From the IMG/VR virus record IMGVR_UViG_3300025502_000007: 64,000 nt of DNA, one strand, 5' to 3'. The number at the start of each line of letters is the position of its first letter. Position 1 is the first letter of the stretch. The position numbers and the translations under genes are program-made. The notes under the pieces were generated by a model. That model was not told where the DNA came from, made no database searches, and was given only the letters and a program-made list of their open reading frames with translations. Shown piece by piece: positions 26,293-43,628 of this stretch. The DNA is from an uncultured virus (IMG/VR IMGVR_UViG_3300025502_000007). Taxonomy: Duplodnaviria > Heunggongvirae > Uroviricota > Caudoviricetes.

Positions 26293-26648
26293 GTGAACTA
26301 CCCACCCACGGCAGAGCCGATGGGTTGGGCTTCGGGGGTCGTAGACTCACCTAATAGCAACGCCTCATCCCGTTTTTGATTATCGTCCGACTGCATCCCA
26401 CAACCAGACGTGAATGTTTTTAATTCAGTTTTACTTTTTGGTTTTATGCAAACTGCAAGATTTTGCAGAGCAACCTTATACCACGTCAAAGAACAACAAA
26501 CTCTTGGTTATCGAAGTTTGTTATAACAAATATATGCGTTTAAACCAAAAACATCAAGTCTTTATCAAAAACAATTGTTATATTTGCTGAATAAGGTCGC
26601 TTTCATCCCATCCACGCTGCGCGATGAATGGGTTTTACGCTCCGTCTT
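26293..26648 (-). mobile_element. non-autonomous IS200/IS605-family mini-element (356 bp) with TnpB omega-RNA, copy 1
   Basis: Minus strand reads TTTAT|AAGACGGAGCG, left-end hairpin, TnpB-tail-like frame (SGCGMQSD..QKRDEALLLGES..PEAQPIGSAVGG*), right-end hairpin, GGGTAGTTCAC. Identical by eye to 34517-34872. Confidence 0.85.
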
Positions 26649-26721
26649 ATAAAAAATGCATTGCGAGGTAGATAGAATCAGTTGGTTTCAAATGCTTTGG
26701 TGCTGTTAAAAATACAGAATT

Positions 26722-27078
26722 ATGAGTTTAGACATTATGTTTCAAAAAGGCTTTCCATTAGAAGACGTTGAAAAGAAAACAGATATTAAGGTAGAGGAAA
26801 GAGACGGAGAGTTTTGGTTGAAGAAAGGTGAAAATGTAATTCTAACCAAAGTAAAAAATGGTATCATACACGGATTAACTCGTTACGGTGAAAATAGTAT
26901 TTCGGAAGTAATGAATAAACTTGTTGTTGTGTTTCAGACAAAGTTCATAACTGACAATGAAGAGGAAATGGTTCATCATGACCCAGAGATAGATGTTGAC
27001 AAGTTATTTGATGATACAACTACTGAATATGGGTACACAATAAGCGAGAAAGGTGATATATCCATCACCGAAGAATAA
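26722..27078 (+). CDS. hypothetical protein (accessory islet)
   Basis: 118-aa ORF with AT-rich codon usage. Confidence 0.65.
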   Translation: MSLDIMFQKGFPLEDVEKKTDIKVEERDGEFWLKKGENVILTKVKNGIIHGLTRYGENSISEVMNKLVVVFQTKFITDNEEEMVHHDPEIDVDKLFDDTTTEYGYTISEKGDISITEE

Positions 27079-27123
27079 ACAGGCTGGGTTAGCTATGTAT
27101 ATACTTCACTATGTAAATTTATT

Positions 27124-27369
27124 ATGTCAAAAGCAAAAGAGTACTACGAAAAAGCAAAGCATCAAGACACTTGGGGATTAGATGTTGTTTATCCTAAATC
27201 AGTTGAAGAAATAATTGAAATATCAAGAATAGAAGGTGTTTTACTTGGGTTAAAATTGTGCAAAGAAATGTGGGCACAAGGAACTATTAATCACGAAGAA
27301 ATCTATGAGAATGAGCAGCATTACAAAGACGAATTACTTACTATTATAAAAAAGATAGATGCTTCTTAA
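27124..27369 (+). CDS. hypothetical protein (accessory islet)
   Basis: 81-aa ORF followed by a small hairpin (AAGACCT-agt-AGGTCTT). Confidence 0.6.
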   Translation: MSKAKEYYEKAKHQDTWGLDVVYPKSVEEIIEISRIEGVLLGLKLCKEMWAQGTINHEEIYENEQHYKDELLTIIKKIDAS

Positions 27370-27429
27370 TTAATAACCAATAAGACCTAGTAGGTCTTTA
27401 TTTTCAACCTGTACCATAAAGCGTTTATT

Positions 27430-27678
27430 ATGAACCAATTTGAATTAAAATCACAGTTTACAGAAGAGTTCTTTGAAGAGTTTCAATTTGATGCAGAATT
27501 TAGAAGTATCTTTGAGTCTATGATTAGGGGATTAACACCTTATGAAGCAATAGAACACTTGTTTAAAAGCAAAAAAGAACTATTTCAATCACTTGAAAGA
27601 GCAATTAACAACTCGCCAAGAAAAATAATAGTGACAACTGAAAGACTTGAACAACTGAAAGACGAAATTCAGAAGTAA
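27430..27678 (+). CDS. hypothetical protein (accessory islet)
   Basis: 82-aa ORF. Confidence 0.6.
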   Translation: MNQFELKSQFTEEFFEEFQFDAEFRSIFESMIRGLTPYEAIEHLFKSKKELFQSLERAINNSPRKIIVTTERLEQLKDEIQK

Positions 27679-27781
27679 CCAAATGATATCATCATCACAC
27701 AAACACAAGGTTTGAAGTGGTACATAGCAAAACCGATACCATTTTACTCGATACAGACCAAACGCTAATAATGCTCTTTAA

Positions 27782-28396
27782 TTACCACTTCCTTCGATAA
27801 TCTTTCTTAAACAAACTCTTTATAACTCTAGACTTCTCGTTCAACTCAGGACTGTAGTCGGACTGCGGTTGCGACATCTTGTTATATTCGTCTTGGTAAG
27901 CTTTTGCTCGCCCCGCATCAAACGATACTATCTGACGCGTAATGTCACTGTCATTTGATTTAAACCCTCCAATTGGCACCTGGGAAAAGAAACCCCCAGT
28001 AAAGAACATGCTTTTTACATTTGATGCCAAAAACAGCCTCCATTCGTTCGATGCCTCTGCGCTTCTAACGCCAGTCTGTCGAGCCTTCTTTTCACTCTGA
28101 CCTTTAACGTGGACCCCACGAAAAACTAATCTACCGTCTTTATCATACCCCATAGCCACAGGCATGATGTTGCGGTACTTGGCTACAGGCATCTTGTACT
28201 TGGTGTTGTTGGATTGAAACAGAAGACCAACCACAAGACCTTGTTCGATTGCTTGCTGCATCAGGTCGACATTAAAAGGAACACGCTCGTTGGACCTCGC
28301 AAAAGGGTCAGGTGCAGTGGCAGTGTTAAGTGCCTCTGAAACAATTCCAGCAAGTCTGTTTAGTTTATGAAGATAAATTGAGGATACGTGTCCCAT
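27782..28396 (-). CDS. WYL-like domain protein
   Basis: RNIMPVAMG...LVFRGVH...WRLFLASNVKSM follows the WYL pattern (R-x3-P...WRLF). N-terminal KLNRLAGIVSE; CTATTTA 5 nt upstream. Confidence 0.6.
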   Translation of the reverse strand: MGHVSSIYLHKLNRLAGIVSEALNTATAPDPFARSNERVPFNVDLMQQAIEQGLVVGLLFQSNNTKYKMPVAKYRNIMPVAMGYDKDGRLVFRGVHVKGQSEKKARQTGVRSAEASNEWRLFLASNVKSMFFTGGFFSQVPIGGFKSNDSDITRQIVSFDAGRAKAYQDEYNKMSQPQSDYSPELNEKSRVIKSLFKKDYRRKW

Positions 28397-28401
28397 ATAC
28401 C

Positions 28402-28441
28402 TAAATAGCCTAGATTATAATCTAAAAATTGATTATATTCG
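28402..28441. promoter_or_regulatory. divergent late-type (CTATTTA, minus) and host-type (TATATTCG, plus) promoters
   Basis: TAAATAG at 28402-28408; TATATTCG at 28434-28441 resembles the Bacteroidota -7 box TAnnTTTG. Confidence 0.5.
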
Positions 28442-28465
28442 CTAAGGACACAACACAGCAGTATT

Positions 28466-29431: not shown

Positions 29432-29477
29432 TTCCCATTCAAGGAATCACTGTCTATTTATACCAAAAATAAGCATT

Positions 29478-30541: not shown

Positions 30542-30959
30542 GCTAGACATCTTTTATGAACTCCTTGAAACCCTCATGTCTATGGAAGCTCATGCGGAAA
30601 AAGGCCTTTTAGGAAAAAAGGCTTCTAAGAAGCACTTGCGTAAGCAGTCAATGGAATTAAAGTTTCTGGCTGACTTTATGCGTCAAAAAATGAGTTTAGA
30701 ACTTAGAGGTAAAGAGTCTGTCCCAAGCTGTTTGGAAAAAAAGTTAGAGAAAGAAAAAGAACGAATGGACAATGCCGATAAGCGATATAAAGCTAGAATC
30801 GACAATTTAAAAAAAGCTAATTCTAACCCTACTGAGAGAGTAGGCAGATTGAAAGACGCCATGATAAAGCAAAAGGAGTTAAATGAGCAAAGAAAAAGGA
30901 AAGCCAAAAAAGAAAGCCAGCTACAGGCCGACGGTGAATATAAAAAAGCTCAGGACTAA
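30525..30959 (+). CDS. histone H1-like (Hc1-family-like) basic protein
   Basis: EAHAEKGLLGKKASKKHLRKQSMELKFLADFMRQK resembles the Bacteroidota Hc1-like pattern (DAEK..GNKAAG.RARK...ELK.....R). Start at 30525 preferred over 30486. Confidence 0.45.
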   Translation: MKEFSELDIFYELLETLMSMEAHAEKGLLGKKASKKHLRKQSMELKFLADFMRQKMSLELRGKESVPSCLEKKLEKEKERMDNADKRYKARIDNLKKANSNPTERVGRLKDAMIKQKELNEQRKRKAKKESQLQADGEYKKAQD

Positions 30960-33900
30960 TTACAACCTGACTTTCGAATTCGACAAACGACTTCAATCTT
31001 ATATCAAATCATTCCCTCGCGAGCACAAGAAGCTGTTCAAAGAGGAAGTGCTGCAATTAGATGGAACCGTAAAAGCTCAGTGGGTCACTCAAGTTAGAGA
31101 GGTCCAGATGGGAAATGTCATCTCATTCCTCCTGGACAATAGTTATCCATTTGCTTTAGACAATTTCACTAAAGCAGAAATGGGGCAACTTCGACAGCTT
31201 TATTTGGAACGCCAAAACAGAATCCGAGAAGCCTTAAAAGCAAAGGCAGACAGCATACAAGTTGACGATGAAGATTACAGTTTTATGAAGATAGAGCCGT
31301 ATGACTACCAAAAGCAGGCAGTTAAATTCATGGAAATCAACGAAGGCGTAATTATGCTTGGCGATGAACCTGGTGTTGGTAAGAGTTTGTTTTTAGAAAC
31401 CCCTATTTGCACCGATAAAGGATGGATACGAATGGGTGATATATCACTCGACTCAAGTGTGTTAGGTTCTGATGGCGAATTTCACAAAGTCACTGGAGTA
31501 TATCCTCAAGGGCTTCTTGATGCATACGAAGTCACCTTTAACGACGGCTCAAAAGTAAAATGTTGCGAAGAGCATTTATGGACAGTAAGAGATGCTAACA
31601 GAAGACAAAAAGGCATAGGGTGGACAGTTAAGTCTATTGCTGAGTTAATAAAATCTGGACTATCGTATAAGACAAATAAAAAAAGAATTGACAGCGGTAG
31701 AAAGCCTGTTTTGAAATGGGAAATCCCGACTATCCAGCCAGCGAATTTCCCTGAGAAGAAATATGTGATTCATCCTTTTATTTTAGGCTCTTTAATCGGA
31801 GATGGAGCTATTTCATCGCCCACCCCTACGATGTCTATACCTGATTTCCAAGAATCAACAGCCAGTTTAATTGAGTCGAATTTATTACCTGGGATGAAGA
31901 TGGCTAAAATAAAAAAATCTGAGTCCACTCAACACTCTTGCAGTAGATACTCAATATCAGATACTTTAGGACAAAAAAACAGATACACCGACGAGATAAG
32001 ACGCTTGAAATTAAATGTGAAATCCCATTACAAATTTATTCCACAAGAGTACAGAAACGGCTCCACTGAGCAGCGAACAGAGCTATTAAAAGGGCTTATG
32101 GACACTGATGGGAGTTGTTCTAACAGTAGAACTCACTATCACACAGTATCAAAACAACTGGCGGAAGATGTAAAAGAATTAACACAGTCATTGGGAGGCA
32201 TAGCAAAAGTGTTTTCTTATGACAGGACACATGAACAAAAAGGGGTTGAGTACCGAGTAAATGTGAAACTCAACTGGGCACCATTTCATCTTGACGATAA
32301 AATAAAAGAACACAAAATAGTAGCAACCAATCACACGTCTAGATATATAGAGAGTATTGAGTATATTGGAGTGCTCCCTCAACAATGTATAAGTGTTGAT
32401 TCTGATGATAGCACATTTGTTGTGAACGATTACATAGTAACTCACAATACAGCTCCAGCATTCGCATACGCAATCAAGCATAACTTAAAAACTCTTGTTA
32501 TATGCCCTGCATCGCTAAAGCTCAACTGGAAGTCGGAGATTGAGAAGTTCTCTCACGAGAAATCGTTTGTATATAAATACAACCCAACCAAAAGAAGCGG
32601 GAAGACAAACAACACTAAAGAGGAGTCTCTATTCCATATAATAAACTTTGAATCAATCCAAACGTTTATCAAACTGGAATACAACCACAGGTGCACAGGA
32701 ACTCTTTTCTCAAGCGGAGGAAATAGAAACTGCGACTGCAAAATCACCAGCCTCAAGAAAAAGATTACAGACGACTGCCCTCAGTGTGCAAACACTAACT
32801 CTTTCAAAAGCAGAATAAAAGGTCTCCAATACATCATTGATAAAGATGGGGAAGTTCTGGACCCTGACGATTATGATTTGATTATCATTGATGAGTTTCA
32901 TAGGATAAAAGAAAGAACTACAGATTGGACAAAAATAATAAACATGGCATTTAGAGAGTCTGTAAGCAAGAAAGTGCTCCTTTCTGGTACCGCCATCAAA
33001 TCTAGGCCGATAGAACTGTTTATGCCTCTCAATTTGCTCGATAAGGACATGTGGAACTCTTTCCATGACTTCGGCGTGCGTTATGGAGCTGGGTTCGAAG
33101 ATAGTTTTGGGTGGAAGTACGATGGGGCATCATATTTAGAAGAGCTATACCAAAGAATATCTCCGTTTTATCTAAGGCGACTCAAAAAAGATGTTTTGTC
33201 CCAACTGCCACCTAAAACATATAGCGAAGTTGTGTTGGAAATGGACATAAAAACCAAGCGAGAATACAACAAAGCCGAGAAAGAGGTAATCAAATTCATT
33301 AACGAGGAAGGAAAAGAAGATGAAAAAGAAATGAGCTTCCTTGCGAAAGTTCACTTACTAAAAAAATGCACGGAGACATTCAAACTTGAAAAGGCGAGGG
33401 ATTTTATTGACGACATCATTGAGTCTGGAGACAAAGTTGTAATATTCTTTGATTACATCGACACGGGAAATGCTATAAAAGAACTGTGGGGTGATAGATG
33501 TGTTTTGCACACAGGGCAAATGAATGCTATCCAAAAGCATGAGTCTGTCACCAGTTTTCAAGAAAAGAAAAACATAAATGTGTTCGGCGGGACGTTTGGC
33601 TCTGCAGGTGTTGGTATCACGTTGACATCCGCTAATAAACTAATTTTTATTGGGCAAGCATGGACACCTGCAGACATGGGTCAGGCCGAAGACAGGATTC
33701 ACAGAGCAACGACGACACACGATAACGTCCAGATTATGACTTTTCTTTGTGAAGACTCAATTGACATCGACATCTATGAGTTACTTAAAGAGAAAAACCA
33801 GGTTGTGAGTAAAGTTTTGGACAACAAAGATTTTAAGCGAGATGTCTCACGAGGAGATGAGAGCATAATTTCAAGACTAATGAATAGAATGGCGGATTAA
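30883..33900 (+). CDS. SNF2/HARP-like superfamily 2 helicase, intein-containing
   Basis: PYDYQ Q-motif, DEPGVGK|T Walker A, ICPASLK, IIDEFH, LSGT, GVGITLT and QAEDRIHR. Confidence 0.92.
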   Translation: MSKEKGKPKKKASYRPTVNIKKLRTNYNLTFEFDKRLQSYIKSFPREHKKLFKEEVLQLDGTVKAQWVTQVREVQMGNVISFLLDNSYPFALDNFTKAEMGQLRQLYLERQNRIREALKAKADSIQVDDEDYSFMKIEPYDYQKQAVKFMEINEGVIMLGDEPGVGKSLFLETPICTDKGWIRMGDISLDSSVLGSDGEFHKVTGVYPQGLLDAYEVTFNDGSKVKCCEEHLWTVRDANRRQKGIGWTVKSIAELIKSGLSYKTNKKRIDSGRKPVLKWEIPTIQPANFPEKKYVIHPFILGSLIGDGAISSPTPTMSIPDFQESTASLIESNLLPGMKMAKIKKSESTQHSCSRYSISDTLGQKNRYTDEIRRLKLNVKSHYKFIPQEYRNGSTEQRTELLKGLMDTDGSCSNSRTHYHTVSKQLAEDVKELTQSLGGIAKVFSYDRTHEQKGVEYRVNVKLNWAPFHLDDKIKEHKIVATNHTSRYIESIEYIGVLPQQCISVDSDDSTFVVNDYIVTHNTAPAFAYAIKHNLKTLVICPASLKLNWKSEIEKFSHEKSFVYKYNPTKRSGKTNNTKEESLFHIINFESIQTFIKLEYNHRCTGTLFSSGGNRNCDCKITSLKKKITDDCPQCANTNSFKSRIKGLQYIIDKDGEVLDPDDYDLIIIDEFHRIKERTTDWTKIINMAFRESVSKKVLLSGTAIKSRPIELFMPLNLLDKDMWNSFHDFGVRYGAGFEDSFGWKYDGASYLEELYQRISPFYLRRLKKDVLSQLPPKTYSEVVLEMDIKTKREYNKAEKEVIKFINEEGKEDEKEMSFLAKVHLLKKCTETFKLEKARDFIDDIIESGDKVVIFFDYIDTGNAIKELWGDRCVLHTGQMNAIQKHESVTSFQEKKNINVFGGTFGSAGVGITLTSANKLIFIGQAWTPADMGQAEDRIHRATTTHDNVQIMTFLCEDSIDIDIYELLKEKNQVVSKVLDNKDFKRDVSRGDESIISRLMNRMAD
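31384..32448 (+). mobile_element. intein (355 aa) with LAGLIDADG homing endonuclease
   Basis: Starts SLFLETPICTDKGW after GVGK, block B EEHLW, LGSLIGDG and LKGLMDTDG, ends IVTHN followed by Thr. Removal restores Walker A GVGKT. Confidence 0.93.
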
Positions 33901-33956
33901 TTGGGTTTTTACTTCTATTTATTTGCACAGCTTACACAACCAAACGGAACACAACG

Positions 33957-34517
33957 ATGAAACTTAAAATTTCTAAAGAAAAACTCAATGCTCTTATTAA
34001 AGAGGAAGCGATGAAGCTTAAATTTAATAAGATTCAAGAAAGTGCTGCTGACAGCAAAGTAAAGCTTCTTGAAAACAAGCTTGCAAAGGTAGAGCAGGAA
34101 ATGCGAGATGTTTATAAAGGACAAAACCTTGACGAACACACTGCTGCCACGCTTGGTATAACTCAAGAGCAAGATATCGAAGAAATTTTCGGAATGGGCA
34201 AGTATGAAAAAGCAAAAAAAGAATACAAGCAAATAAAATCTCAAGAACTCGCTCAATTAACTCAAGCCTATAAGGCTCGCACAGCAGATTATGTTGAGAT
34301 TTCGAAAGGCTTGCTACAAACGCTTCGTCAAGATTCTGCTGAAATCGCTAAAAGACATGGCATTACTGATGTTGCAATTTTTTACAAAGACCTGCAACAA
34401 TTAGCTCAACCAATGGACTTTAACACATTTAATAGGCAAGCCGCCAAAGGTGGGGCTAGCTTTAAAGATTTTGTATCTGGAGCGAGAAGTGGCCAGGGAG
34501 GCGATTTCGGAGTATAG
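33957..34517 (+). CDS. probable internal head protein
   Basis: N-terminal KISKEKLNALIKEE helix; IQE, LDE and IEE motifs; TATTTAT upstream. The last base of its TAG stop is supplied by the mini-IS. Confidence 0.55.
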   Translation: MKLKISKEKLNALIKEEAMKLKFNKIQESAADSKVKLLENKLAKVEQEMRDVYKGQNLDEHTAATLGITQEQDIEEIFGMGKYEKAKKEYKQIKSQELAQLTQAYKARTADYVEISKGLLQTLRQDSAEIAKRHGITDVAIFYKDLQQLAQPMDFNTFNRQAAKGGASFKDFVSGARSGQGGDFGV

Positions 34518-34872
34518 TGAACTACCCACCCACGGCAGAGCCGATGGGTTGGGCTTCGGGGGTCGTAGACTCACCTAATAGCAACGCCTCATCCCGTTTT
34601 TGATTATCGTCCGACTGCATCCCACAACCAGACGTGAATGTTTTTAATTCAGTTTTACTTTTTGGTTTTATGCAAACTGCAAGATTTTGCAGAGCAACCT
34701 TATACCACGTCAAAGAACAACAAACTCTTGGTTATCGAAGTTTGTTATAACAAATATATGCGTTTAAACCAAAAACATCAAGTCTTTATCAAAAACAATT
34801 GTTATATTTGCTGAATAAGGTCGCTTTCATCCCATCCACGCTGCGCGATGAATGGGTTTTACGCTCCGTCTT
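34517..34872 (-). mobile_element. non-autonomous IS200/IS605-family mini-element (356 bp) with TnpB omega-RNA, copy 2
   Basis: Identical to copy 1. Removing it gives GGA GTA TAA TAA, restoring a natural stop, with no target-site duplication and TTTAT at the left end. Confidence 0.88.
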
Positions 34873-34889
34873 ATAAAAACAAATTTAAC

Positions 34890-34917
34890 AAAAAGTCAGC
34901 TTCAAGCTGACTTTTTT
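34890..34917. terminator. bidirectional intrinsic terminator between convergent genes
   Basis: AAAAAGTCAGC-ttcaa-GCTGACTTTTTT. Confidence 0.7.
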
Positions 34918-35351
34918 GCTTCAGAAGTGTTGAAGTTTGTAAGTATTTGTCGGTCAAATTTATCAAGAGAGTTAATTCCACCAATGTAAATTTTTTCAAG
35001 AACCTCGTCGCATTTAATGTGCTTGGAATAAAAGTCTGAAATGAAATCACTGGGACTCAGTGTGTCATTGCTATAAACAAATTCACATAATCTTCCGCTT
35101 CTATATAGCTCTTTAAAGTTCTCGGTGAAGTCAACATCCTGCTGAACATTTACTTGGAATTCCAATAAAGTTTTTTTAAGTATTTCAAAGCACGACTCAT
35201 TCATGATAGTGTACACACATTGAGCCCCATTTTCCTCTCTGACTATAATGTGCTCGTAAAGCTCAATCCCTGACTTAGCTTTAAAGGTTTTTGTGAAATC
35301 CATTTGGACTTCATTATCACGATTGGGTGTTATGACTATTTTCCTTACCAT
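34902..35351 (-). CDS. hypothetical protein with C-terminal DUF6576-like motif
   Basis: DEVLEKIYIGGINSLDKFDRQIL resembles D-x-ILDKI-x2-SG-x2-SLT-x2-E-x3-L. CGTATATTG promoter-like box just upstream. Confidence 0.55.
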   Translation of the reverse strand: MVRKIVITPNRDNEVQMDFTKTFKAKSGIELYEHIIVREENGAQCVYTIMNESCFEILKKTLLEFQVNVQQDVDFTENFKELYRSGRLCEFVYSNDTLSPSDFISDFYSKHIKCDEVLEKIYIGGINSLDKFDRQILTNFNTSEAKKSA

Positions 35352-35440
35352 CACTTACAATATACGCAGGAAATAAAGAAATGTTACATCTACGCATTCA
35401 TAAATATCCCAGCTATTTATAAACCAACAACACTAATGGC

Positions 35441-36352
35441 ATGATTTTAAAGGTAGGAGATAGAGGTCAGAAAGTAATAGAAGTGCAAAAAATGCTGTCG
35501 GTTCTAGGTTACGACTTGGTTATAGATGGCGATTATGGTGCAAAAACGCAACGTTCAGTAAAAGCTTTTCAAAAGAAAATTGGATTGATGAATGACGGTG
35601 TAGTTGGTCAGTCAACTGCAGACGCTTTAAAAGCACATGCATCAAGAAAAAGAACATGGAAGCCATCAGTGACTAATGAAGCTTCAAAACAAGAATATCC
35701 AATGCCAGTAGATAAAAGTCACAGACTGTCTACGGGGCAATACATCAAGCAAACTACGTCAAAAACTCAAATCTTTCTTCATTTTACAGCTGGAGGGCCA
35801 AGTGCGAAAAACGTAATAGATTATTGGGATTCTAATGAGCCTAGAGTTGCAACGCCATTTGTCATAGATGGCGACGGTGATGTGTTTGAATGCTTCAATC
35901 CAGACTACTGGAGCTATCACTTAGGCATAAAAGGCACTAAGGGCAGGTTAGATAAATCATCATTTGGAATTGAAATCTGCAATTATGGGCCCTTAAAGTT
36001 AAAAGATGGAAAATACTACGCTTGGCCAAAAGATTACTCTACAAAAGTAATACCTAAAGATGAAGTTTACAGCCTACCTAGAGGGTTTAGAGGTTTTCAA
36101 TATTACCAATCATTTACTGATGGGCAAATCAATGCCACAGAAAAACTTTGTGAGCATTTAATTGAGAAATATAATATCGAAATCCAATACGAGTTTGACT
36201 ATTCTTGGTTTGACTATGATAGCGAAGTTATTCGACAAACTCTTCCTGGAATTTGGTCACACTCCACAGTTAGAAAAGATAAACTTGACTTGTATCCAGA
36301 CCACAGAATTCTAGAGATGCTTAATCGATTAGCAACAAAGTATGGAAAATAA
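35441..36352 (+). CDS. endolysin: peptidoglycan-binding domain plus N-acetylmuramoyl-L-alanine amidase (Amidase_2)
   Basis: LKVGDRG..V..VQ..L...DGDYG..T..SVKAFQ...DGVVG..T, then IFLHFTAG, SFGIEICN and HSTVRKDKLD. Confidence 0.88.
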   Translation: MILKVGDRGQKVIEVQKMLSVLGYDLVIDGDYGAKTQRSVKAFQKKIGLMNDGVVGQSTADALKAHASRKRTWKPSVTNEASKQEYPMPVDKSHRLSTGQYIKQTTSKTQIFLHFTAGGPSAKNVIDYWDSNEPRVATPFVIDGDGDVFECFNPDYWSYHLGIKGTKGRLDKSSFGIEICNYGPLKLKDGKYYAWPKDYSTKVIPKDEVYSLPRGFRGFQYYQSFTDGQINATEKLCEHLIEKYNIEIQYEFDYSWFDYDSEVIRQTLPGIWSHSTVRKDKLDLYPDHRILEMLNRLATKYGK

Positions 36353-37250
36353 AACATATCCAGTAGAGATACTTTTTAAATATCTGACAAGGGATGAAAC
36401 TGCTGCGGATATAGCTAAGGAAGTTGGTGTTGACTTAAGTGTTGATAAGTCGTGGTTTGTACGAACGTATAAAGCTACTGTAGAATTATTTACTCAGTCA
36501 GGCCCTGATTTAAAGCTAAAATTTTCATCTGGCCTCAGGAGGGAAGAGATGCAGAGCTTAATCTCCACCTTTATTAGCGTTATTACTGCTAGTAAGAAAA
36601 AGTTTGACGCAGCAAAGTCTACTCCAGGGAAGAAGATGTATGCCATTAACAATCAGGGCGACGCGCAAACTCTTGATGCGTTTAGTATGAATGAAACAGA
36701 GGATTGGGACTCTGAACAAAAGGAAGACTTTTCAAACAAGCTTTACGAAGAAGGTGTAATTACCAGAGTTCATCTTGCTTGGATTGAAGAGTACCCAGAT
36801 AAAGGAACGAATCAATTTGAGCCAGCTTTGAAGATGGCTCTGGATATTCTTATAGAACAGGTTCCAAAACAATATAACGGACCTTTAATGCCTTCTGACA
36901 TAAAAGAAATTGAAGACTTTTTAAAAGAGCTTGTTCTTTCCTTTGAGCCAGCAAAATCTATTTTTAATTCAACAGGAAAATCTCAAAAAAACAAGTCAAA
37001 CAAAGAAGTTGGATACGTTGACCCACAACCATTTGAAAAAGGCTCTTACAGCACTGTCGGCTTAAACGAATCAGTTGATGCGTGGACAGAGGCCAAGCTT
37101 AGAAAGTTTGTCAAAAAAGAATTTGAAACACAAACAAAAAAAGGTGAATACATGTCCAAGAAAGAAGTTAAGGACATGATTCGCAAGACGATTGTGCTAC
37201 AGTATAAGTATTTATGGGAGAAGAGCGCGTTCTTCATAAACCAGATTTAA
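36342..37250 (+). CDS. hypothetical (probable head-associated) protein
   Basis: 302 aa with MNE and LNES motifs and a KEVKDMIRKTI helix. Confidence 0.6.
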   Translation: MENKTYPVEILFKYLTRDETAADIAKEVGVDLSVDKSWFVRTYKATVELFTQSGPDLKLKFSSGLRREEMQSLISTFISVITASKKKFDAAKSTPGKKMYAINNQGDAQTLDAFSMNETEDWDSEQKEDFSNKLYEEGVITRVHLAWIEEYPDKGTNQFEPALKMALDILIEQVPKQYNGPLMPSDIKEIEDFLKELVLSFEPAKSIFNSTGKSQKNKSNKEVGYVDPQPFEKGSYSTVGLNESVDAWTEAKLRKFVKKEFETQTKKGEYMSKKEVKDMIRKTIVLQYKYLWEKSAFFINQI

Positions 37251-37251
37251 T

Positions 37252-37941
37252 ATGAACAAAGAAGATTTGAAAGATTTAATCAGAAAAGAGGTGTGGTCAG
37301 CAGCAGCATCCAAGCTAAAGCAAGAAAAAGCAGCAGCAGCCAATAAGCCTCAAGCTGATTTGCCTCCAAAGATGGACGACAGAGAATTTGAAAATATCTT
37401 GTTTAATGGCGGCTATGAAGACACGGGGTTCAACAAAATATATGGCCTAGCTGAGGGAGCAATTCCACAGATAGATGCTGGTGAAATAAATGAATTTGAA
37501 AGAAAGTTTGCCGAGACGCTTTCAAAATATCCAAACACAACTGTCACATTCGATGAGCAGGGCAAGAACAGAAAAAGCATGTCATTCACGCAAAACCCAA
37601 AAGGGATTGCTGTAACTGCATCTGGATATATTCAAATTGGAAATGAAGGAAATATGCGATGGATGTTTTCCATTCCCAATGGGCTAAGGATTGAAACAGA
37701 AGGGGTTGAGCTGACCCAGGAAAACAAAGAATTGTTCCCTGAGATTTACAATTTCTACAACGAATGGCAAAAAGAATGGAGACAAAAACTTACTGGAAAC
37801 GAGGAAGCCCCAGAAGACTTTGCCGATGATATGCTTCCTGGCCAAGAACAGCCAGGAATGGTTCCTGGATTAAGCTCTGCTCCTGGAGAAGCGCCTGGAG
37901 CGGTTGCAGGTGGAGGAGCTGGTGGAGCAGCAGCTGTTTAA
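37252..37941 (+). CDS. hypothetical (probable head-associated) protein
   Basis: 229 aa; N-terminal KEDLKDLIRKEV; Gly/Ala/Pro-rich tail. Confidence 0.6.
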   Translation: MNKEDLKDLIRKEVWSAAASKLKQEKAAAANKPQADLPPKMDDREFENILFNGGYEDTGFNKIYGLAEGAIPQIDAGEINEFERKFAETLSKYPNTTVTFDEQGKNRKSMSFTQNPKGIAVTASGYIQIGNEGNMRWMFSIPNGLRIETEGVELTQENKELFPEIYNFYNEWQKEWRQKLTGNEEAPEDFADDMLPGQEQPGMVPGLSSAPGEAPGAVAGGGAGGAAAV

Positions 37942-37977
37942 GCTTTAAAATAGTTCCTTGAAAAACTATCATTAAGT

Positions 37978-38304
37978 GTGAATCATACCATTAAGCAAAT
38001 CCTTATAAACCAAGACAAGTTTAAAACTGAAATTGTCACGTGGCTTAAAAGAGATTTTAAAGAGCAGAAAAAAGAACTTTCTGAGATAAAAGTGGATAAC
38101 GACAAAGAAATTGCTAAATCAATAAAATCTTTGAAGAAGAAATTTAAAAACCTCAGCGTTAATTCTCTTATAGACTCTTTGCTATTTAGAGGCGGCTCAA
38201 AAAGAAGCAAATCATACTACGCTTGGTGGAGTGAAACACTAGACACAGTAATCATTTACACTTATGGCAAAAAAACAACCAATAGAAGCATTAGTCGACC
38301 TTGA
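37978..38304 (+). CDS. hypothetical protein
   Basis: 108-aa ORF with GTG start. Confidence 0.5.
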   Translation: MNHTIKQILINQDKFKTEIVTWLKRDFKEQKKELSEIKVDNDKEIAKSIKSLKKKFKNLSVNSLIDSLLFRGGSKRSKSYYAWWSETLDTVIIYTYGKKTTNRSISRP

Positions 38305-38653
38305 GTTCGATGGAAGCACTAATAAGTTTGAGGAGTTCTATGGAGACTCCGTTACTTACCAACAAGTAGAACAAGAAAGTTACATTGAGTTCAAAATAAT
38401 GATGAACGATTTTGTTGGAAAAGTGAAATTCAGGAAATCTAGAGAAATATCTCGACCCAGCTCTCTCACTTGTCGTCTAACAATGAGCGACGTCCAATAT
38501 TCACTATTTGAAGCTATTTACAAGGGAGAGAGTATTGACGAAGAAGAATCTACGGAAGATAAAATAGTATATCACCGTTTTTTCTTTCTACATGATTTCA
38601 AAATTTGCAACATTCGCCTCCATGACGAAAACAACCCAGAACTACCTAGATAA
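38264..38653 (+). CDS. hypothetical protein
   Basis: 129-aa ORF with TAATG coupling to the next gene. Confidence 0.6.
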   Translation: MAKKQPIEALVDLEFDGSTNKFEEFYGDSVTYQQVEQESYIEFKIMMNDFVGKVKFRKSREISRPSSLTCRLTMSDVQYSLFEAIYKGESIDEEESTEDKIVYHRFFFLHDFKICNIRLHDENNPELPR

Positions 38654-39591
38654 TGAATCAGCAGAATCATCAAACCTTACAAGACGAAAGATATAACAGA
38701 CTCCAGACATTGGGGTACAAAGGACCTGTGGGAGGAGGTCTTACTGAGGGGGATGTAAATGGGAACGCACATTCACCAGCCGTTAGAAGACAATATGGCG
38801 ATGTCCTTAGTGGACAGTTTCGTCAAAAGTACCAGGAAATGTTTTCAAAAAAGTCTAAAACAGGACCATCTGGATTCAATCCTATTCCAGTAAAACCCCA
38901 CAACGGAGCCCCAGTAGACGAAGACAAAAAAGTTTCGGTTGCTGATTTTTCATCAGGAGTGGATAGAAGTAATGACTCAGAGTTGAGCGCTATCGATAAA
39001 ATGTTTGACCCAGACTACGGTAGCGGTGGTGGTGCAAGGCTTTCAATGAGCCCAAGAGGAGAAATTGGAGCTAATCTTGACAATTATGGCCCAAATTGGA
39101 ACGCAATGAATGTTTCCAATCAATTACAGAACAGATTGCAACAAAAACAAACTGAGATGGAGCAGCCGCTTACTCAGTCGCCTGTTCAACAACAACCAGC
39201 TAAATCAAATGCTCTCTCATATAGAGATTTCGCTAGCGATAAACAAGGGTTTGCTTCAGAAGTTTCTCCAGTTGCAGAATCTACTCCAGAGGTGCGTAAG
39301 GACTATAAAGCGCACCAGAATTATATGTATCACATGAATGAAGCTATTATTCGTGAGATTGCTGAAGAAATTGCATCAAAAACTGTAAAATCAGTACTTG
39401 CTGAGCACATCAAGACTGAACGCAGTAAATATGTGTTTGAAAGAGTAACATTCAAGAAAAAAGATGGAACACTTGTTGAGCTGCTAAAGAAAGACGACAA
39501 ATATTTCGAACTCACAACAATTGAGACAGCCAAAGGAAATTTTACAGCTCTAAAAGAACGTAAAGTTAGTCCTAAAAAACGAAAATATTAA
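38653..39591 (+). CDS. hypothetical protein, largely low-complexity
   Basis: 312-aa ORF with LTE, MNE and LAE motifs. Confidence 0.6.
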   Translation: MNQQNHQTLQDERYNRLQTLGYKGPVGGGLTEGDVNGNAHSPAVRRQYGDVLSGQFRQKYQEMFSKKSKTGPSGFNPIPVKPHNGAPVDEDKKVSVADFSSGVDRSNDSELSAIDKMFDPDYGSGGGARLSMSPRGEIGANLDNYGPNWNAMNVSNQLQNRLQQKQTEMEQPLTQSPVQQQPAKSNALSYRDFASDKQGFASEVSPVAESTPEVRKDYKAHQNYMYHMNEAIIREIAEEIASKTVKSVLAEHIKTERSKYVFERVTFKKKDGTLVELLKKDDKYFELTTIETAKGNFTALKERKVSPKKRKY

Positions 39592-39779
39592 CTACGCATT
39601 TTTCTAGTAAGCGTTCTAAGAAGGTCTAAAGCTTCATCATAACCCTCAGAATCAGAGTTATATATTCCTAGATTTCCAAGAAGCCAGCGAATATTAGAGA
39701 TGAAATTAAGGTCTTTGCGCTCATTTGGGATGTACATCTCCATCAAGAGTTCGTCAAGTCTCAGTTTCATCTCGTTCAT
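39588..39779 (-). CDS. small hypothetical protein
   Basis: 63-aa ORF 10 nt downstream of infC on the same strand. Confidence 0.55.
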   Translation of the reverse strand: MNEMKLRLDELLMEMYIPNERKDLNFISNIRWLLGNLGIYNSDSEGYDEALDLLRTLTRKMRS

Positions 39780-39789
39780 CGGCAGTTTC

Positions 39790-40356
39790 TTATTTTTGTT
39801 TAGGCTTGGGCTTAATATCCACTTTTAGTCTTTTTCCTTCGAACTTAGGTAACGCTAACGGTATCCCATAGCTTTCAAGGGAGGACGCAAACTCTAGCAT
39901 TAGCTTTTGGCCAATTTCTTTATTTGCAATCATTCTGCCACGGAAAAACATGCTTAGACGGACAATGTTTCCATCCTCCAGGAAGCTGATTGCATGAGCG
40001 CGTTTAAAGTCTAAGTCACCTGGACCAGTTGTTGGCCCTAAACGAATCTCTTTTGTTTCAACTTTTGCTATTCGCTGCTTAGCTTCTTGCTCTCGCGCCT
40101 TCTTTTTGATTTCATATTTAAATTTACCAAGCTCTATAATTCTACATACAGGAGGCTTTGCGTTTGGGGAAATCTCTATTAAATCAAGCTCAAGACTTGC
40201 CGCTATGTTTTTAGCTTCTTCGGTCTTATACACTTCTCCTGATACAAACTTGTCACTATCACCTGTTAACCGTACCTCTAGTACTTTAATCTGATGGTTG
40301 ACTCTGTGTGTGAATTTATCCTGTCTCTTAGGTTGGGCTTTTTTGCCTCGTCGCAT
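39790..40356 (-). CDS. infC: translation initiation factor IF-3 (phage-encoded)
   Basis: RVNHQI...EVRL...LDLIEISPNAKPPVCRIIELGKFKYE..KK, KEIRLGP...DLDFK and FFRGR: both IF3 domains present. Confidence 0.93.
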   Translation of the reverse strand: MRRGKKAQPKRQDKFTHRVNHQIKVLEVRLTGDSDKFVSGEVYKTEEAKNIAASLELDLIEISPNAKPPVCRIIELGKFKYEIKKKAREQEAKQRIAKVETKEIRLGPTTGPGDLDFKRAHAISFLEDGNIVRLSMFFRGRMIANKEIGQKLMLEFASSLESYGIPLALPKFEGKRLKVDIKPKPKQK

Positions 40357-40389
40357 ATTGGTGTATTGAATTTGTTATAAATATGGCTG

Positions 40390-42111
40390 TTAATTCGGAA
40401 GTATACCTTTTTTTCGAGAATCTTTTTTATTTCCCGTAGGCAAGGCCGTCTCATTACCATTATCGTAAATTACTGGATTTTTTAAATTAAACTCTAACTC
40501 TTCTTGTTTGTCGGACACTTGAATGTCTAAGTTAATGTTGTCAAAATAGACAGCCGATTCTGTTTCCGATTCAGAAGGCATAACTCCTACAACTACTGAA
40601 TCCTGTCTTTCGCTTAAAAAAACCTCTTGGAAACTTACTCCATCAACAGTGGTGATTTTATCCTGACCTTCAAAAAGTAAATAGAACATCCCACTTTCAG
40701 CATCCTGCCTAATTCTTTGTATGACATGCAAAGCTAAATCTTTTTCAATGTCCTCAGATAATATAGCATCATGCATATTTCTAGTTAACTTGCCTCGGTA
40801 ATCGCGCAGTGCTGAACCTATAGTCTCCCCATTTCCGACAGTATTATAGTTTTCAACGTTAACCATACAGACGGCCTTAATCATGCCTGAGGAAGCTTGC
40901 ATGCCCATTATGTATGTTGGCTCCCCATTAACATTATATGTTTTAGGAAAAGTGGCTTTATAGCCAAGGTCAGCATACATATCATTAGCACTCTTCATTG
41001 CAGCGTCTTCGGTGGCTCCTGCTTTTTTGTAAAAAATGGTTTTCTTAGTTTTTGTGTTAACTTCAATAAATCCAATAGTAGCATCGTCTTTCCCAACAGA
41101 AGTTACACCTGTATAATAGTAGCAATCTCCATCGTTTCCGTAAACAACACTCATGTCATTTGTGATTTTCTTTCTGTTTTTATCATCCCAATTAATGTAA
41201 CCCATTGCTAAAGAACCCCAGTCGACCAGTTGTTCATGGATTATATGAGATGGCTGGACCCTGTCCACCCAATCAGGAGCCTCTTTAGTGGTGTACTGTT
41301 CTATTTCCCCAGTTTCAGCGTCTACAACTAAACATCCAGAAACCTCTTTCCCTGACATACCAATAGTTCTGTCATACATAGTCACAACCCAATATGGCTT
41401 TCCCATGTCGTCAATTTCAAACTGATAATCTGTCAAATAAGTTGTCGAATACCCGCTCAACCACAGGTGCCTTTCCAAGTTCTGGTCAAAACAAGCCTTT
41501 GGTTGATACACAATGTTGTACGTGTCTATGTATTGAATATCTTTCTCATCAACAGCATTCACCATTACATATCCTGGTGTGCCTTGTTTGTTGCTACGCC
41601 ATTTCCAATAGCTTGTGTGAAGCGTTGGAGCGACATAGTAAATCCCTTGATTAACCTCCTGGAGAACGTACTCACCAATCTCAACTTGAGACCCAACTAC
41701 GTTTTCAGTGGTATCTTCTGGGTCTACAAGAGACTTCTGGCCGAGTAATAAAGCAGTTGATGGCGGTATAACAAATATCTTTGACTGGTCAATTGGAGCC
41801 ACCTCATCTGAATATACTTTATATTCCACTACCCCAATTAAATCTCGATATTTTTCGTCATTTAACCATCGATTCCCCCCTATCGACTGTAAAAGAAGCA
41901 CAGTTATTGTTAAAACACTAATTATTACCCCTACCCAAGTGAAAGGTGTGGCTTTGCTTTTAGACCAATTTATCCCTAATACTGTGACACAAATTCCCCA
42001 AAACAAAAATGTAAGCCACATGTTGGGGTTGTCCATTTTCCAAGTTGGAAGTCCAAAATAAACACAGAAGTAAACAATACCTCCAAGTAGAATAGTCTTA
42101 ACTATATTCAT
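40390..42111 (-). CDS. membrane protein with three N-terminal TM helices and a large soluble domain
   Basis: 573 aa; hydrophobic N-terminal segments; PepSY-like YWVV...VVDAETGEI motif. Confidence 0.7.
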   Translation of the reverse strand: MNIVKTILLGGIVYFCVYFGLPTWKMDNPNMWLTFLFWGICVTVLGINWSKSKATPFTWVGVIISVLTITVLLLQSIGGNRWLNDEKYRDLIGVVEYKVYSDEVAPIDQSKIFVIPPSTALLLGQKSLVDPEDTTENVVGSQVEIGEYVLQEVNQGIYYVAPTLHTSYWKWRSNKQGTPGYVMVNAVDEKDIQYIDTYNIVYQPKACFDQNLERHLWLSGYSTTYLTDYQFEIDDMGKPYWVVTMYDRTIGMSGKEVSGCLVVDAETGEIEQYTTKEAPDWVDRVQPSHIIHEQLVDWGSLAMGYINWDDKNRKKITNDMSVVYGNDGDCYYYTGVTSVGKDDATIGFIEVNTKTKKTIFYKKAGATEDAAMKSANDMYADLGYKATFPKTYNVNGEPTYIMGMQASSGMIKAVCMVNVENYNTVGNGETIGSALRDYRGKLTRNMHDAILSEDIEKDLALHVIQRIRQDAESGMFYLLFEGQDKITTVDGVSFQEVFLSERQDSVVVGVMPSESETESAVYFDNINLDIQVSDKQEELEFNLKNPVIYDNGNETALPTGNKKDSRKKGILPN

Positions 42112-42135
42112 ATGCTTTTTGAGTTATATTTTTTT

Positions 42136-42214
42136 TAGTAGCGTGTGCTGAATCGAACAGCAGCAGGGGTATCCCCCAAAGACTTAATGAGAGTCTTACT
42201 TCCACATCACGCTA
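42136..42214 (-). ncRNA. tRNA-like RNA lacking a D-stem, CAU anticodon, long variable arm
   Basis: Acceptor TAGCGTG/CACGCTA; T-arm TGCTG-TTCGATT-CAGCA; anticodon arm AAGACT-CTCATTA-AGTCTT; variable hairpin GGGG-GATA-CCCC; only 10 nt (ATGTGGAAGT) in place of the D-arm. Confidence 0.65.
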
Positions 42215-42319
42215 TTTACTTCTAATATACGGAGGTTGTCTATAAAAGTTTCGTAAAAATTGAATTTGTTGTTTTCCTTGCTATTTATGAGGGAATTCTA
42301 GCAAACAAAACGAATACAC

Positions 42320-43009
42320 ATGTCTAAGCAAATCAGAAAAGAAGACCTCGTAAGATACATCCACGGACAAGCTCAAAGGCTAATCGAGGCTGACGAGATA
42401 AAAGCAGCAGGCAATCCAACTGATGTTGTTATGAACAAGATGGTTGGTGGAGCAAGCGCAAATCCAGAAGCCAAAGTTAAGAACATTGGTGGAAACGAGG
42501 AAACTAAATCAGCGAAAGTTGCTGCCAAAGACCCTATGAACGTTGCCATGAATACAATGGACAAAGAGGCTGGCTGTGACGGAGCGGCGTCTACTGCGGT
42601 TAAAGTTAACGCAGGTGGAGACCTTTCAAGTGACCAATCGGCCACAGCTGGTCAAAAAACTGCAAACTTTGATTCAAAAAAATCAAACCCTACCAAAGAG
42701 AAAGGTGAACCATTTGATAAAGATGGCGAAGCAAAAATGAACTCTATGGACAAGGAAGTTGACGAAGGGACAAAAACTTTTGTCGGTGCAAAAGGAAATC
42801 TAAGCTCAGACCAGGCAACAAATGTCGGGATGAACGGAGCAGATGTTCACGAAGATGCACAAAATGAAGCAGTTCCAGAAGCTATAGCTAAAGCAATTGA
42901 GATGCCGAAAGAAGGGTTTACCTTCAAGAATAGAAATGAATTGCTAGAATGGACTAAAATCCAGGCTGAGAAAGTTGCGACTCTAATGGAGTCTAAAAAA
43001 AAAGATTAA
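42320..43009 (+). CDS. probable prohead core/internal protein, with possible -1 frameshift extension to 43260
   Basis: Low-complexity K/D/A/N protein with internal repeats (MN-x-MDKE; G-x-LSSDQ twice). Ends TCT AAA AAA AAA GAT TAA; the -1 frame is open for 85 codons. Confidence 0.7.
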   Translation: MSKQIRKEDLVRYIHGQAQRLIEADEIKAAGNPTDVVMNKMVGGASANPEAKVKNIGGNEETKSAKVAAKDPMNVAMNTMDKEAGCDGAASTAVKVNAGGDLSSDQSATAGQKTANFDSKKSNPTKEKGEPFDKDGEAKMNSMDKEVDEGTKTFVGAKGNLSSDQATNVGMNGADVHEDAQNEAVPEAIAKAIEMPKEGFTFKNRNELLEWTKIQAEKVATLMESKKKD

Positions 43010-43280
43010 GTGAAGGCACACTTGGAGCAGGTGAACAGGCTTTACATGCCAGCCAAGAAGGCGAGAGCGCTTTTAAAGAATACCTTGACACGCTTGAGTG
43101 GGAAGAGCGTTCAAATCCATCTGTTCTGATAGACATTGGAAAAGGATTCACACGTGGCGTTAATGCTGCTTTAGAGTCAAATCTCACAGATTTAGCACCA
43201 AACGCAGGAGCAGCGCCTGATGAGATTGCTGGAATCAACTTTGAACAGCCAGGCTTCTAAACACCAATAAAATATAAAAC

Positions 43281-43311
43281 AAAAAAGAGACTAATTTAAG
43301 TCTCTTTTTTG
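43281..43311 (+). terminator. intrinsic terminator
   Basis: AAAAAAGAGACT-aattta-AGTCTCTTTTTT, just after the TAA at 43260. Confidence 0.75.
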
Positions 43312-43338
43312 TTTTATTGAAGTAACTGATTATATTCT

Positions 43339-43628
43339 GTGAACTACCCATCCACAGCAAGCTGATGGAAGGGCTTCTAAAAAAAATATAAATGCAAAGA
43401 GCAGATACATATTCAGAATTTACAGCGTTTCGTAGACTTGCCCAATGGCAACGCCTCACCGCCTTTTTGTTTATCCTGCGAAGTTGGTCCCCAACCCACA
43501 GCTTAATATTTTGTTTCGCTTATGATTTTATGCAAACAACGAAAAAGAACTTATTTGTAAATATATAAAAAAAACGCTTACATCTCACCCACGCTAAAAA
43601 GCGATGAGTGAGTTTTACGCTAAATCAT
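43339..43628 (-). mobile_element. divergent non-autonomous IS200/IS605 mini-element (290 bp), copy 3
   Basis: Same GTGAACTACCCA end and TTTTACGCT end followed by ATAAA (TTTAT on minus). Shares CGTAGACT, GCAACGCCTCA and TTTTATGCAAAC with copies 1 and 2, with compensatory hairpin changes. Confidence 0.8.

What the first reader, a model, noticed from the sequence alone, without database searches (positions are those of the whole stretch)
26293..43628. Family of protein-less IS200/IS605 mini-elements that act as stand-alone TnpB guide-RNA cassettes in a jumbo phage
Seen in sequence: two identical 356-bp elements (26293-26648, 34517-34872) and a diverged 290-bp relative (43339-43628), all on the minus strand. 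Each lies directly 3' of TTTAT, has no target duplication, has subterminal hairpins at both ends and ends in GGGTAGTTCAC. No tnpA or tnpB is present in the elements or in the window; only the TnpB C-tail-coding stretch remains. Established: IS200/IS605 elements insert 3' of a 4-5 nt motif without duplication, and the TnpB omega-RNA overlaps the tnpB 3' end and right end, taking its guide from flanking DNA. Inference: each copy is a minimal promoter plus omega-RNA gene with its own guide (ACTATAATATTTTCCAAAAA, TATACTCCGAAATCGCCTCC, AGAATATAATCAGTTACTTC). Loaded in trans onto a TnpB, these would cut element-free alleles, giving a dispersed RNA-guided homing or phage-versus-phage exclusion system.
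Basis: partly seen in the sequence, partly recalled or inferred. Interest (0 to 1): 0.85.

Follow-up and report, generated by a model that had tools for sequence, protein, structure and literature searches.

The report
Protein-less guide-RNA mini-transposons in jumbo phage
A very large bacterial virus carries several tiny jumping DNA elements that have lost their genes but kept the template for a guide RNA, which a cutting enzyme encoded elsewhere in the same virus could borrow to protect or spread them; this kind of element is known from bacteria, and here it turns up in a phage.

Summary
e1 and e2 (356 bp, identical) and e3 (290 bp) are gene-less IS605-family elements: TTTAT upstream, no duplication, end hairpins, TTCAC end. 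Full-length tnpA/tnpB relatives share both ends. e1/e2 keep exactly the last 116 nt of tnpB, which folds as a complete omega-RNA scaffold (108 bits against a model built from 33 tnpB-bearing relatives). They also carry a Bacteroidota-type promoter. e3 keeps the stems but has a 46-nt insert. An intact tnpB with the same ends lies on a 447-kb contig linked to this phage by identical proteins and matching depth, and a fourth mini-element lies outside the window. Similar minis recur in other phages. Not shown: transcription, TnpB loading, cleavage, an empty allele of e1-e3, or a tnpA on this phage. The concept is already in print: PATEs encoding omega-RNAs acted on in trans, stand-alone omega-RNAs, and TnpB homing between co-infecting replicons. 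Best reading: selfish PATE-type elements that kept their guide so a trans TnpB maintains or homes them. A domesticated phage-versus-phage exclusion system is not excluded but has no direct support. New member of a known kind.

The parts
26293..26648 (-). e1: protein-less IS605-family mini-element, 356 bp
34517..34872 (-). e2: identical copy of e1
43339..43628 (-). e3: diverged mini-element, 290 bp; a second copy elsewhere in the phage is implied by about 2x depth of its core and a second right-end flank
26649..26653 (-). TAM TTTAT of e1
34873..34877 (-). TAM TTTAT of e2
43629..43633 (-). TAM TTTAT of e3
26607..26636 (-). e1 left-end DNA guide (AAAA) and subterminal hairpin (same in e2 at 34831-34860)
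43584..43612 (-). e3 left-end hairpin
26527..26557 (-). e1 Bacteroidota-type promoter: TTG, 20-nt spacer, TATATTTG (-7 box); predicted, not measured
34751..34781 (-). e2 promoter, identical to e1
43558..43565 (-). e3 imperfect -7 box (TATATTTA); the upstream TTG present in relative L071 is deleted
26409..26522 (-). e1 leader (two hairpins, boxA-like GTTCTTTGA), shared in part with L071 and e3, origin unknown (e2: 34633-34746)
26293..26408 (-). e1 omega-RNA scaffold, 116 nt = tnpB 3' tail: stem 1 with GGA loop, stem 2, right-end hairpin, TTCAC
34517..34632 (-). e2 omega-RNA scaffold
43339..43501 (-). e3 omega-RNA scaffold with stems 1 and 2 intact
43378..43423 (-). 46-nt insert in e3 between stem 2 and the right-end hairpin
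26273..26292 (-). predicted guide of e1 (intergenic flank)
   Evidence: guide rule from the literature
34497..34516 (-). predicted guide of e2 (antisense to the last codons of ORF 33957-34517)
43319..43338 (-). predicted guide of e3
43274..43317 (-). intrinsic-terminator-like hairpin directly after the e3 guide
33957..34517 (+). 186-aa ORF whose stop codon ends on the last base of e2; the computed empty allele stops at the same codon, so the insertion is silent for the protein

Best explanation
These are non-autonomous IS605-family derivatives (PATE type) in a jumbo phage of about 450 kb, probably infecting Bacteroidota. Each arose by internal deletion that removed tnpA and tnpB but left the left end, a host-type promoter and the whole omega-RNA scaffold up to the right end. 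Steps: (1) a TnpA supplied in trans moves them to TTTAT sites without duplication (shown by anatomy and by identical copies; the source of TnpA was not found). (2) The internal promoter makes an RNA that runs through the scaffold into the flank, which becomes the guide (inferred). (3) The intact TnpB of a full-length relative in the same phage trims and loads this RNA (partner shown by linkage; loading inferred). (4) The complex cuts TTTAT-plus-guide, that is the allele without the element, after excision or in a co-infecting strain, and repair from the filled allele restores or spreads the element (inferred from published TnpB biology). The beneficiary is the element itself. e1/e2 are the best candidates for activity; e3 may be decaying.
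For: Same ends as full-length tnpA/tnpB elements. TAM and left-end guide covary: 42 TTTAT/AAAA and 3 TTTAC/AAAG among 50 elements with a left end, duplicates included, 5 with no TAM assigned. The tnpB tail of 33 relatives has a covarying three-stem fold with a possible GRA:UUC pseudoknot (92.4% cells paired vs 75.2% shuffled, 0/500). e1 homology starts at the first base of stem 1, 116 nt from the end, the length of the ISDra2 scaffold. e1/e2 score 108 bits on the parent-only model. Intact TnpB P0021 in a 1356-bp element with TTTAT and TTCAC; its contig length, 446,956, is also the longest contig of 2 of 5 window proteins exactly and of variants of 2 more; its unitig depth tracks the phage in 2 of 4 runs (14.9 vs 15.5; 30.3 vs 32.3). 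P0021 is 381/401 identical to a TnpB whose tail is 101/116 identical to e1. All 19 two-hairpin minis catalogued keep stem 1. In a 205-214-bp family the -7 box ends about 6 nt before stem 1. L077 shows a right end joined right after the next TTTAT of the L076 allele.
Against: No empty allele of e1-e4 among 1.38 Mb of largely redundant loci, and no joint skipping e2 or e3 in 4 runs of contigs. No TnpA in G001-G004 or on the 447-kb contig among listed cluster members. Four 48-51-bp single-hairpin elements and several remnants lack the scaffold, so retention is not universal. Six of the 19 minis show no promoter pattern. e3 scores only 41.6 bits, within the range of scaffold-less remnants (26-61 bits). 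The phage's own TnpB tail is only 94/116 identical to e1 and differs most in stem 1. The link to the 447-kb contig rests on contig length and depth, not on a sequence overlap.
Confidence: 0.62

Rival explanations
1. Ordinary passive PATEs: mobile or stranded deletion remnants whose scaffold and promoter survive as a by-product of where deletions fall, with no working guide RNA.
For: No expression or cleavage data; scaffold-less hybrids and remnants exist; some deletions join similar sequences of the left end and tnpB (L008); insertions sit in intergenic DNA or at a stop codon and look neutral; e3 has lost promoter and leader parts relative to L071.
Against: All seven lineages found without using the RNA model keep stem 1 (hand estimate about 0.03 if break points were uniform 45-200 nt from the end). 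Promoter fused about 6 nt before stem 1 in a multi-copy family. The promoter pattern arises in 0.66% of shuffles of the e1 middle. e1 and L071 keep the fold despite sequence divergence (for e1 and e3).
Confidence: 0.2
2. A domesticated, dispersed multi-guide system: the phage keeps one TnpB and several guide cassettes because cutting element-free relatives during co-infection benefits the phage (exclusion or marker exclusion).
For: One tnpB and at least five minis in one phage (e1-e3, e4, second e3 copy); other phage records hold many scaffold matches but fewer tnpB genes (G412: 11 matches, 4 OrfB_IS605 hits); a conserved non-parental leader in two diverged lineages; the same flank and guide with two different scaffolds in L030 and L042.
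Against: The elements keep intact transposon ends and e1 = e2, the mark of recent mobility, not immobilisation. Guides are simply the flanks and fall mostly in intergenic DNA, not in conserved essential genes. No target in another phage was found. Selfish homing predicts the same anatomy.
Confidence: 0.12
3. The minis act as decoys or regulators: abundant scaffold RNA titrates TnpB (the phage's or the host's), or the transcripts act antisense on neighbouring genes.
For: All three run antisense to the prevailing gene direction and the e2 transcript would enter the 3' end of an ORF; the e3 insert can pair with the guide of the second e3 copy.
Against: That pairing is matched or beaten by 16 of 1008 random TTTAT-adjacent 20-mers. 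The full-length element in L076 is not antisense to most neighbours. No host target is known.
Confidence: 0.06

Closest known systems
PATE-like, omega-RNA-only ISGst elements of Geobacillus stearothermophilus (Meers et al., bioRxiv 10.1101/2023.03.14.532601; passages read)
   Same: Gene-less IS200/IS605 derivatives with both ends; TAM TTTAT and TEM TTCAC as in ISGst2; covariation of TAM with the left-end DNA guide; the paper states that PATEs often encode omega-RNAs acted on in trans by TnpB of other elements.
   Different: Here in a jumbo phage, with Bacteroidota-type promoters and a leader not found in the parents; no experimental data.
Stand-alone omega-RNAs of OMEGA systems (described in Altae-Tran et al. 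2023, PMC10691335; passages read)
   Same: Mobilised omega-RNA loci without effector or transposase in the same genome as an effector-bearing locus; reported to function in trans; biological role called unknown.
   Different: The original demonstration concerned IscB (recalled; that paper was not held). Here the effector is TnpB and the genome is a phage.
ISDra2 TnpB and its omega-RNA (Nakagawa et al. 2023, PMC10097598; passages read; PDB 8H1J, 8BF8)
   Same: 116-nt scaffold overlapping the tnpB 3' end; 5' stem loop pairing with the 3' UUC; the phage TnpB matches at E about 1e-80.
   Different: Different TAM (ISDra2 TTGAT, recalled); in ISDra2 the RNA sits in a coding element.
Transposon non-restorative homing and free-standing phage homing endonucleases (review PMC13565253; passages read)
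   Same: Cutting of the element-free orthologous site in co-infecting phages or plasmids, repaired from the filled allele.
   Different: Described for TnpB-coding elements in plasmids and protein-guided nucleases in T4; not for protein-less guide cassettes.
Viral CRISPR mini-arrays (review PMC11656645; passages read)
   Same: Small guide-only loci in viruses that borrow an effector and can act against related viruses.
   Different: Spacers there are acquired from competitors and use host Cas proteins; here the guide is just the flank, so only the same site in close relatives can be hit.

Membership tests
IS200/IS605 family (Y1 TnpA type) | Subterminal hairpins at both ends, no terminal inverted repeats | tested here: met
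IS200/IS605 family (Y1 TnpA type) | Insertion 3' of a fixed 4-5-nt motif without target duplication | tested here: met
   TTTAT at 3 of 3; flanks differ; right end joined after TTTAT in L077 vs L076
IS200/IS605 family (Y1 TnpA type) | TAM specified by a DNA guide 5' of the left hairpin | tested here: met
   42 TTTAT/AAAA and 3 TTTAC/AAAG of 50, duplicates included
IS200/IS605 family (Y1 TnpA type) | Scarless empty allele at the same site | tested here: inconclusive
   none found for e1-e4; computed e2 empty allele keeps the ORF stop
PATE (non-autonomous IS200/IS605 derivative) | Both ends shared with an autonomous family member, no protein-coding gene | tested here: met
PATE (non-autonomous IS200/IS605 derivative) | Mobilised in trans by TnpA | tested here: inconclusive
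   identical copies at two sites; no tnpA located on this phage
Stand-alone TnpB omega-RNA | Complete scaffold with stem 1 pseudoknot loop, ending at the right end | tested here: met
   e1/e2; e3 only by fold, with a 46-nt insert
Stand-alone TnpB omega-RNA | Compatible catalytically intact TnpB in the same genome | tested here: met
Stand-alone TnpB omega-RNA | Transcribed across the right end into the flank | not testable with these tools
   no RNA holder listed; promoter only predicted
Stand-alone TnpB omega-RNA | Loads TnpB in trans and directs TAM-dependent cleavage | not testable with these tools
   needs biochemistry
Viral CRISPR mini-array-like exclusion system | Guides match other, related viruses rather than only the own flank | tested here: inconclusive
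   no target in 1.38 Mb of held loci, which include no element-free strain

The most novel reading that the evidence does not exclude
Large Bacteroidota phages keep one TnpB and a scattered set of mobile, promoter-fused guide cassettes (in this lineage with a dedicated boxA-like leader that may protect the untranslated RNA from termination). Together these would act as a self-writing multi-guide system that cuts element-free relatives at many sites during co-infection, a transposon-based counterpart of viral CRISPR mini-arrays and a living intermediate between one-guide TnpB and array-guided Cas12.
Probability: 0.15. Interest if true: 0.75.

Novelty: new member of a known kind. Interest (0 to 1): 0.42.

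Why it matters
The role of stand-alone omega-RNAs is called unknown in PMC10691335. This phage offers a compact natural test: one intact TnpB, several guide-only elements with cognate TAM, and even a natural allele pair (L076/L077) in which one strain's guide matches the other strain's DNA. If the minis program the TnpB in trans, phage-borne guide cassettes drive site-specific gene conversion between co-infecting jumbo phages. The 205-214-bp promoter-plus-scaffold family also marks natural minimal omega-RNA boundaries for a TTTAT-TAM TnpB clade.

Tried and rejected
No whole genome was held. Rfam gave no match at gathering threshold in the window and only chance matches on e1 and L071. BLAST of e1 and of its leader against the GenBank phage set found nothing meaningful. 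Searches for related loci by flanking proteins returned only the same genome, so no empty site came from there. No RNA holder was listed; this says nothing about expression. Joints (34223-34875, 34542-34847, 34534-43597) were rejected as empty sites: they have short sides and come from similar hairpins or other organisms. The unbroken contig over the e2 left end in run X20 was rejected as evidence that e1 is absent, because its raised depth fits two copies. The leader as tnpA or tnpB remnant: rejected, no open frame or match in the sampled parents. The leader pattern was not found in 401 genomes of the phylum of G006. boxA reading: only 2 of 30 sampled GTTCTTTGA sites lay near tRNA genes, so it stays a recalled resemblance. 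e3 insert as anti-guide: weak, 16 of 1008 controls as good. Strand preference from GC skew: four elements, not interpretable. TAM-plus-guide targets elsewhere in the 158-kb composite: best 11 of 16 matches, none credible. The 447-kb record could not be searched directly, so the number of further elements and the presence of tnpA on it remain open.
Full report
1. Observation. e1 (26293-26648) and e2 (34517-34872) are identical over 356 bp; e3 (43339-43628) shares the left hairpin, the middle of the scaffold and the right end at 79-83%. End hairpins fold as single-stranded DNA. No TnpA or TnpB family was hit in the 61 and 62 ORFs I scanned out of 113 listed, or in six-frame searches of records G001-G004 (one search covered G002-G004 only). 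The window encodes phage-like genes (SbcCD, RuvC-like resolvase, SNF2 helicase, endolysin, IF3). The nearest record, G001, is 109 kb and rated 31% complete. Twenty of 23 listed runs hold the stretch, all labelled salt-lake metagenome, 19 of them flagged as possible sources.

2. The family. A 26-nt right-end pattern hit 42 viral loci and a degenerate version hit 53 genome loci, 35 of them titled as Bacteroidota by my count. Many carry a 390-440-aa ORF ending at the right end with the tail that e1 still reads in frame, and the same left end. Several have divergent tnpA plus tnpB, others tnpB alone. Among 50 elements with a recognised left end, duplicates included, 42 pair TTTAT with left-end guide AAAA and 3 pair TTTAC with AAAG; 5 had no TAM assigned. 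Meers et al. describe this covariation, TAM TTTAT and TEM TTCAC for ISGst2 (passages). So e1-e3 are IS605-family derivatives.

3. The RNA. The last 128 nt of 33 tnpB-bearing relatives (one contains a run of N) fold into three stems. 92.4% of cells pair against 75.2% in shuffles (0 of 500) and 37-45% in slid controls; 208 cells show two-sided change. The GRA loop of stem 1 can pair with the terminal UUC in all 32 scorable rows, though that helix has no two-sided change. This matches the ISDra2 architecture: a 116-nt scaffold with a pseudoknot, and a dispensable 5' excess that is processed (PMC10097598 passages). e1's similarity to its closest parent begins at the first base of stem 1, 116 nt from the end. 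A model built from parents only scores e1 and e2 at 108 bits and e3 at 41.6. e3's score alone is not decisive, since scaffold-less remnants reach 26-61 bits. Its fold, however, keeps stems 1 and 2 and adds a 46-nt insert before the right-end hairpin.

4. Promoter and leader. e1/e2 carry TTG, 20 nt, TATATTTG. TAnnTTTG is the flavobacterial -7 box (PMC9723704 passages); the upstream TTG and its spacing are recalled. The pattern occurs 20 times in the 158-kb composite, three of them in e1, e2 and e4 on the element strand, and in 0.66% of shuffles of the e1 middle. The sigma-70 scan found nothing above background. Between promoter and scaffold lies a 116-nt leader whose motifs recur only in the e3 lineage (L071, partly deleted in e3). 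It matches no sampled parent (first 42 loci), Rfam family or any of 401 genomes searched. It contains GTTCTTTGA, which resembles boxA (recalled; my check was uninformative). Its origin is unexplained.

5. The partner. Contigs laid on 33000-45000 showed the e1/e2 unitig at about twice flank depth, the e3 core also raised, and an 11.5-kb contig at phage depth in 2 of 4 runs that shares 84 nt of the e2 right end and continues as tnpB-like sequence. A metagenome scan with that continuation gave 9 loci. L076 holds an intact 1356-bp element: TTTAT, left end, 401-aa TnpB (P0021), TTCAC. P0021 aligns with ISDra2 TnpB at E about 1e-80 with D183, E267 and D349 in place (catalytic positions recalled). 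L076 lies on a 446,956-bp contig. That length is the longest contig for 2 of 5 window proteins exactly and for variants of 2 more; the fifth gave 217,560. L076 does not overlap the 158 kb I could assemble, and the record could not be searched, so the link is strong but indirect. P0021 is 381/401 identical to a TnpB whose tail is 101/116 identical to e1; its own tail is 94/116. A fourth mini (e4, 229 bp, TTTAC, 126 bits, perfect promoter) lies about 40 kb left of the window. No tnpA was tied to this phage, but autonomous relatives exist (L081). L077 differs from L076 by a 327-bp deletion joining the right end to the base after the next TTTAT, the junction TnpA should make, and L077's guide now matches the L076 allele.

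6. Is the scaffold kept on purpose? I catalogued 23 distinct gene-less elements of at most 420 bp: 19 with two hairpins (204-356 bp) and 4 single-hairpin left/right hybrids of 48-51 bp. All 19 keep stem 1. The gapless finder missed the bulged stem in 7 and picked another hairpin in 1; 18 were scored over the full model at 40-126 bits, and L029 shares its tail with L028. Seven lineages were found without the RNA model; by hand, uniform break points 45-200 nt from the end would keep stem 1 in all seven with probability about 0.03. In a 205-214-bp family present in four copies in record G412, the -7 box ends about 6 nt before stem 1. Against: the hybrids, four left-end-less remnants that lack or break stem 1, and six minis without a promoter pattern. 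G412 has 11 model matches and 4 OrfB_IS605 hits; G415 has 7 matches, so dispersed copies are common in these phages.

7. What is missing. No RNA run was listed. No empty allele of e1-e4 turned up: of 109 distinct guides, only L077's had a TAM-adjacent target in 1.38 Mb of redundant loci, and 4 runs of contigs showed no joint skipping e2 or e3, which contigs can hide. The insertions look neutral: e1 and e3 are intergenic, and e2 supplies the last base of a stop codon that the empty allele would also have.

8. Mechanism and comparison. Most likely these are selfish PATEs, moved by a trans TnpA, whose retained promoter and scaffold let the phage's TnpB cut the element-free allele so that repair restores or spreads them (0.62). 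Passive remnants (0.2), a domesticated exclusion system (0.12) and decoy or antisense roles (0.06) are the rivals. Meers et al. state that PATEs often encode omega-RNAs to be acted on in trans; Altae-Tran et al. 2023 describe mobilised stand-alone omega-RNAs that work in trans, role unknown; a 271-nt PATE with a tnpB tail is reported in Halanaerobium (PMC7290912 passages); homing of IS605 between co-resident replicons is reviewed in PMC13565253 (passages); viral CRISPR mini-arrays in PMC11656645 (passages). TnpB genes are common in phages (425 records). The listings of searches showed no paper on protein-less TnpB guide elements in phage genomes. I read only passages of seven papers and no supplements, the library lacks most subscription journals, and the 2021 paper on stand-alone omega-RNAs was not held, so this is weak evidence of novelty.

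9. Verdict. Real, well-formed and testable, but a new member of a known kind. The phage setting, the cognate TnpB, the promoter fusions and the unexplained leader lift it above a routine remnant. Interest 0.42.

Noticed in passing
L076:10111-10438 vs L077: 327-bp deletion adjacent to the full-length element joins its right end to the base after the next TTTAT; the new guide matches the undeleted strain's allele, a natural target pair.
   Followed up: partly
L067:6211-6439 (G003, about 40 kb left of the window): Fourth mini-element e4, 229 bp, TTTAC TAM with matching AAAG guide, different scaffold lineage, perfect promoter 14 nt before stem 1.
   Followed up: yes
window 43378-43423: The e3 insert is partly complementary to the guide of the second e3 copy seen as a loose end; 16 of 1008 control 20-mers pair as well, so only a lead.
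   Followed up: partly
L170, L174, L176, L180 (G412); L017, L191: Multi-copy 205-214-bp family in other phages with the -7 box about 6 nt before stem 1: a tighter promoter-plus-omega-RNA cassette than e1.
   Followed up: partly
L175, L177, L197, L198: 48-51-bp elements with TTTAT, one hairpin and TTCAC, apparently left/right-end fusions without omega-RNA.
   Followed up: partly
L032, L090, L134, L195; L009, L035, L038: Family members carrying extra ORFs inside the element or inside tnpB that look like HNH or GIY-YIG homing endonucleases (by eye, not scanned).
   Followed up: no
L030 and L042: Same upstream gene and same guide but two different omega-RNA scaffolds, both without a left end: scaffold exchange at a fixed site.
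   Followed up: partly
L181 (G412:42856-42984): Scaffold without a left end directly downstream of tRNA-like sequence, possibly co-transcribed.
   Followed up: no
window 55525-56136: Exact 306-bp tandem duplication inside ORF 54343-56946; record G001 is 306 bp shorter across this part, so it may be an assembly or strain difference.
   Followed up: partly
window 30883-33900: SNF2-type helicase with an internal LAGLIDADG domain, likely an intein.
   Followed up: no
window 39790-40356: Phage-encoded translation initiation factor IF-3.
   Followed up: no
window 50056-52269 and 52284-52889: Protein with an ART-PolyVal ADP-ribosyltransferase domain followed by a phage metallopeptidase gene.
   Followed up: no
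L076:4431-5345: Sigma-70-family factor on the 447-kb contig, 3.4 kb from the tnpB element; it may read phage promoters.
   Followed up: no
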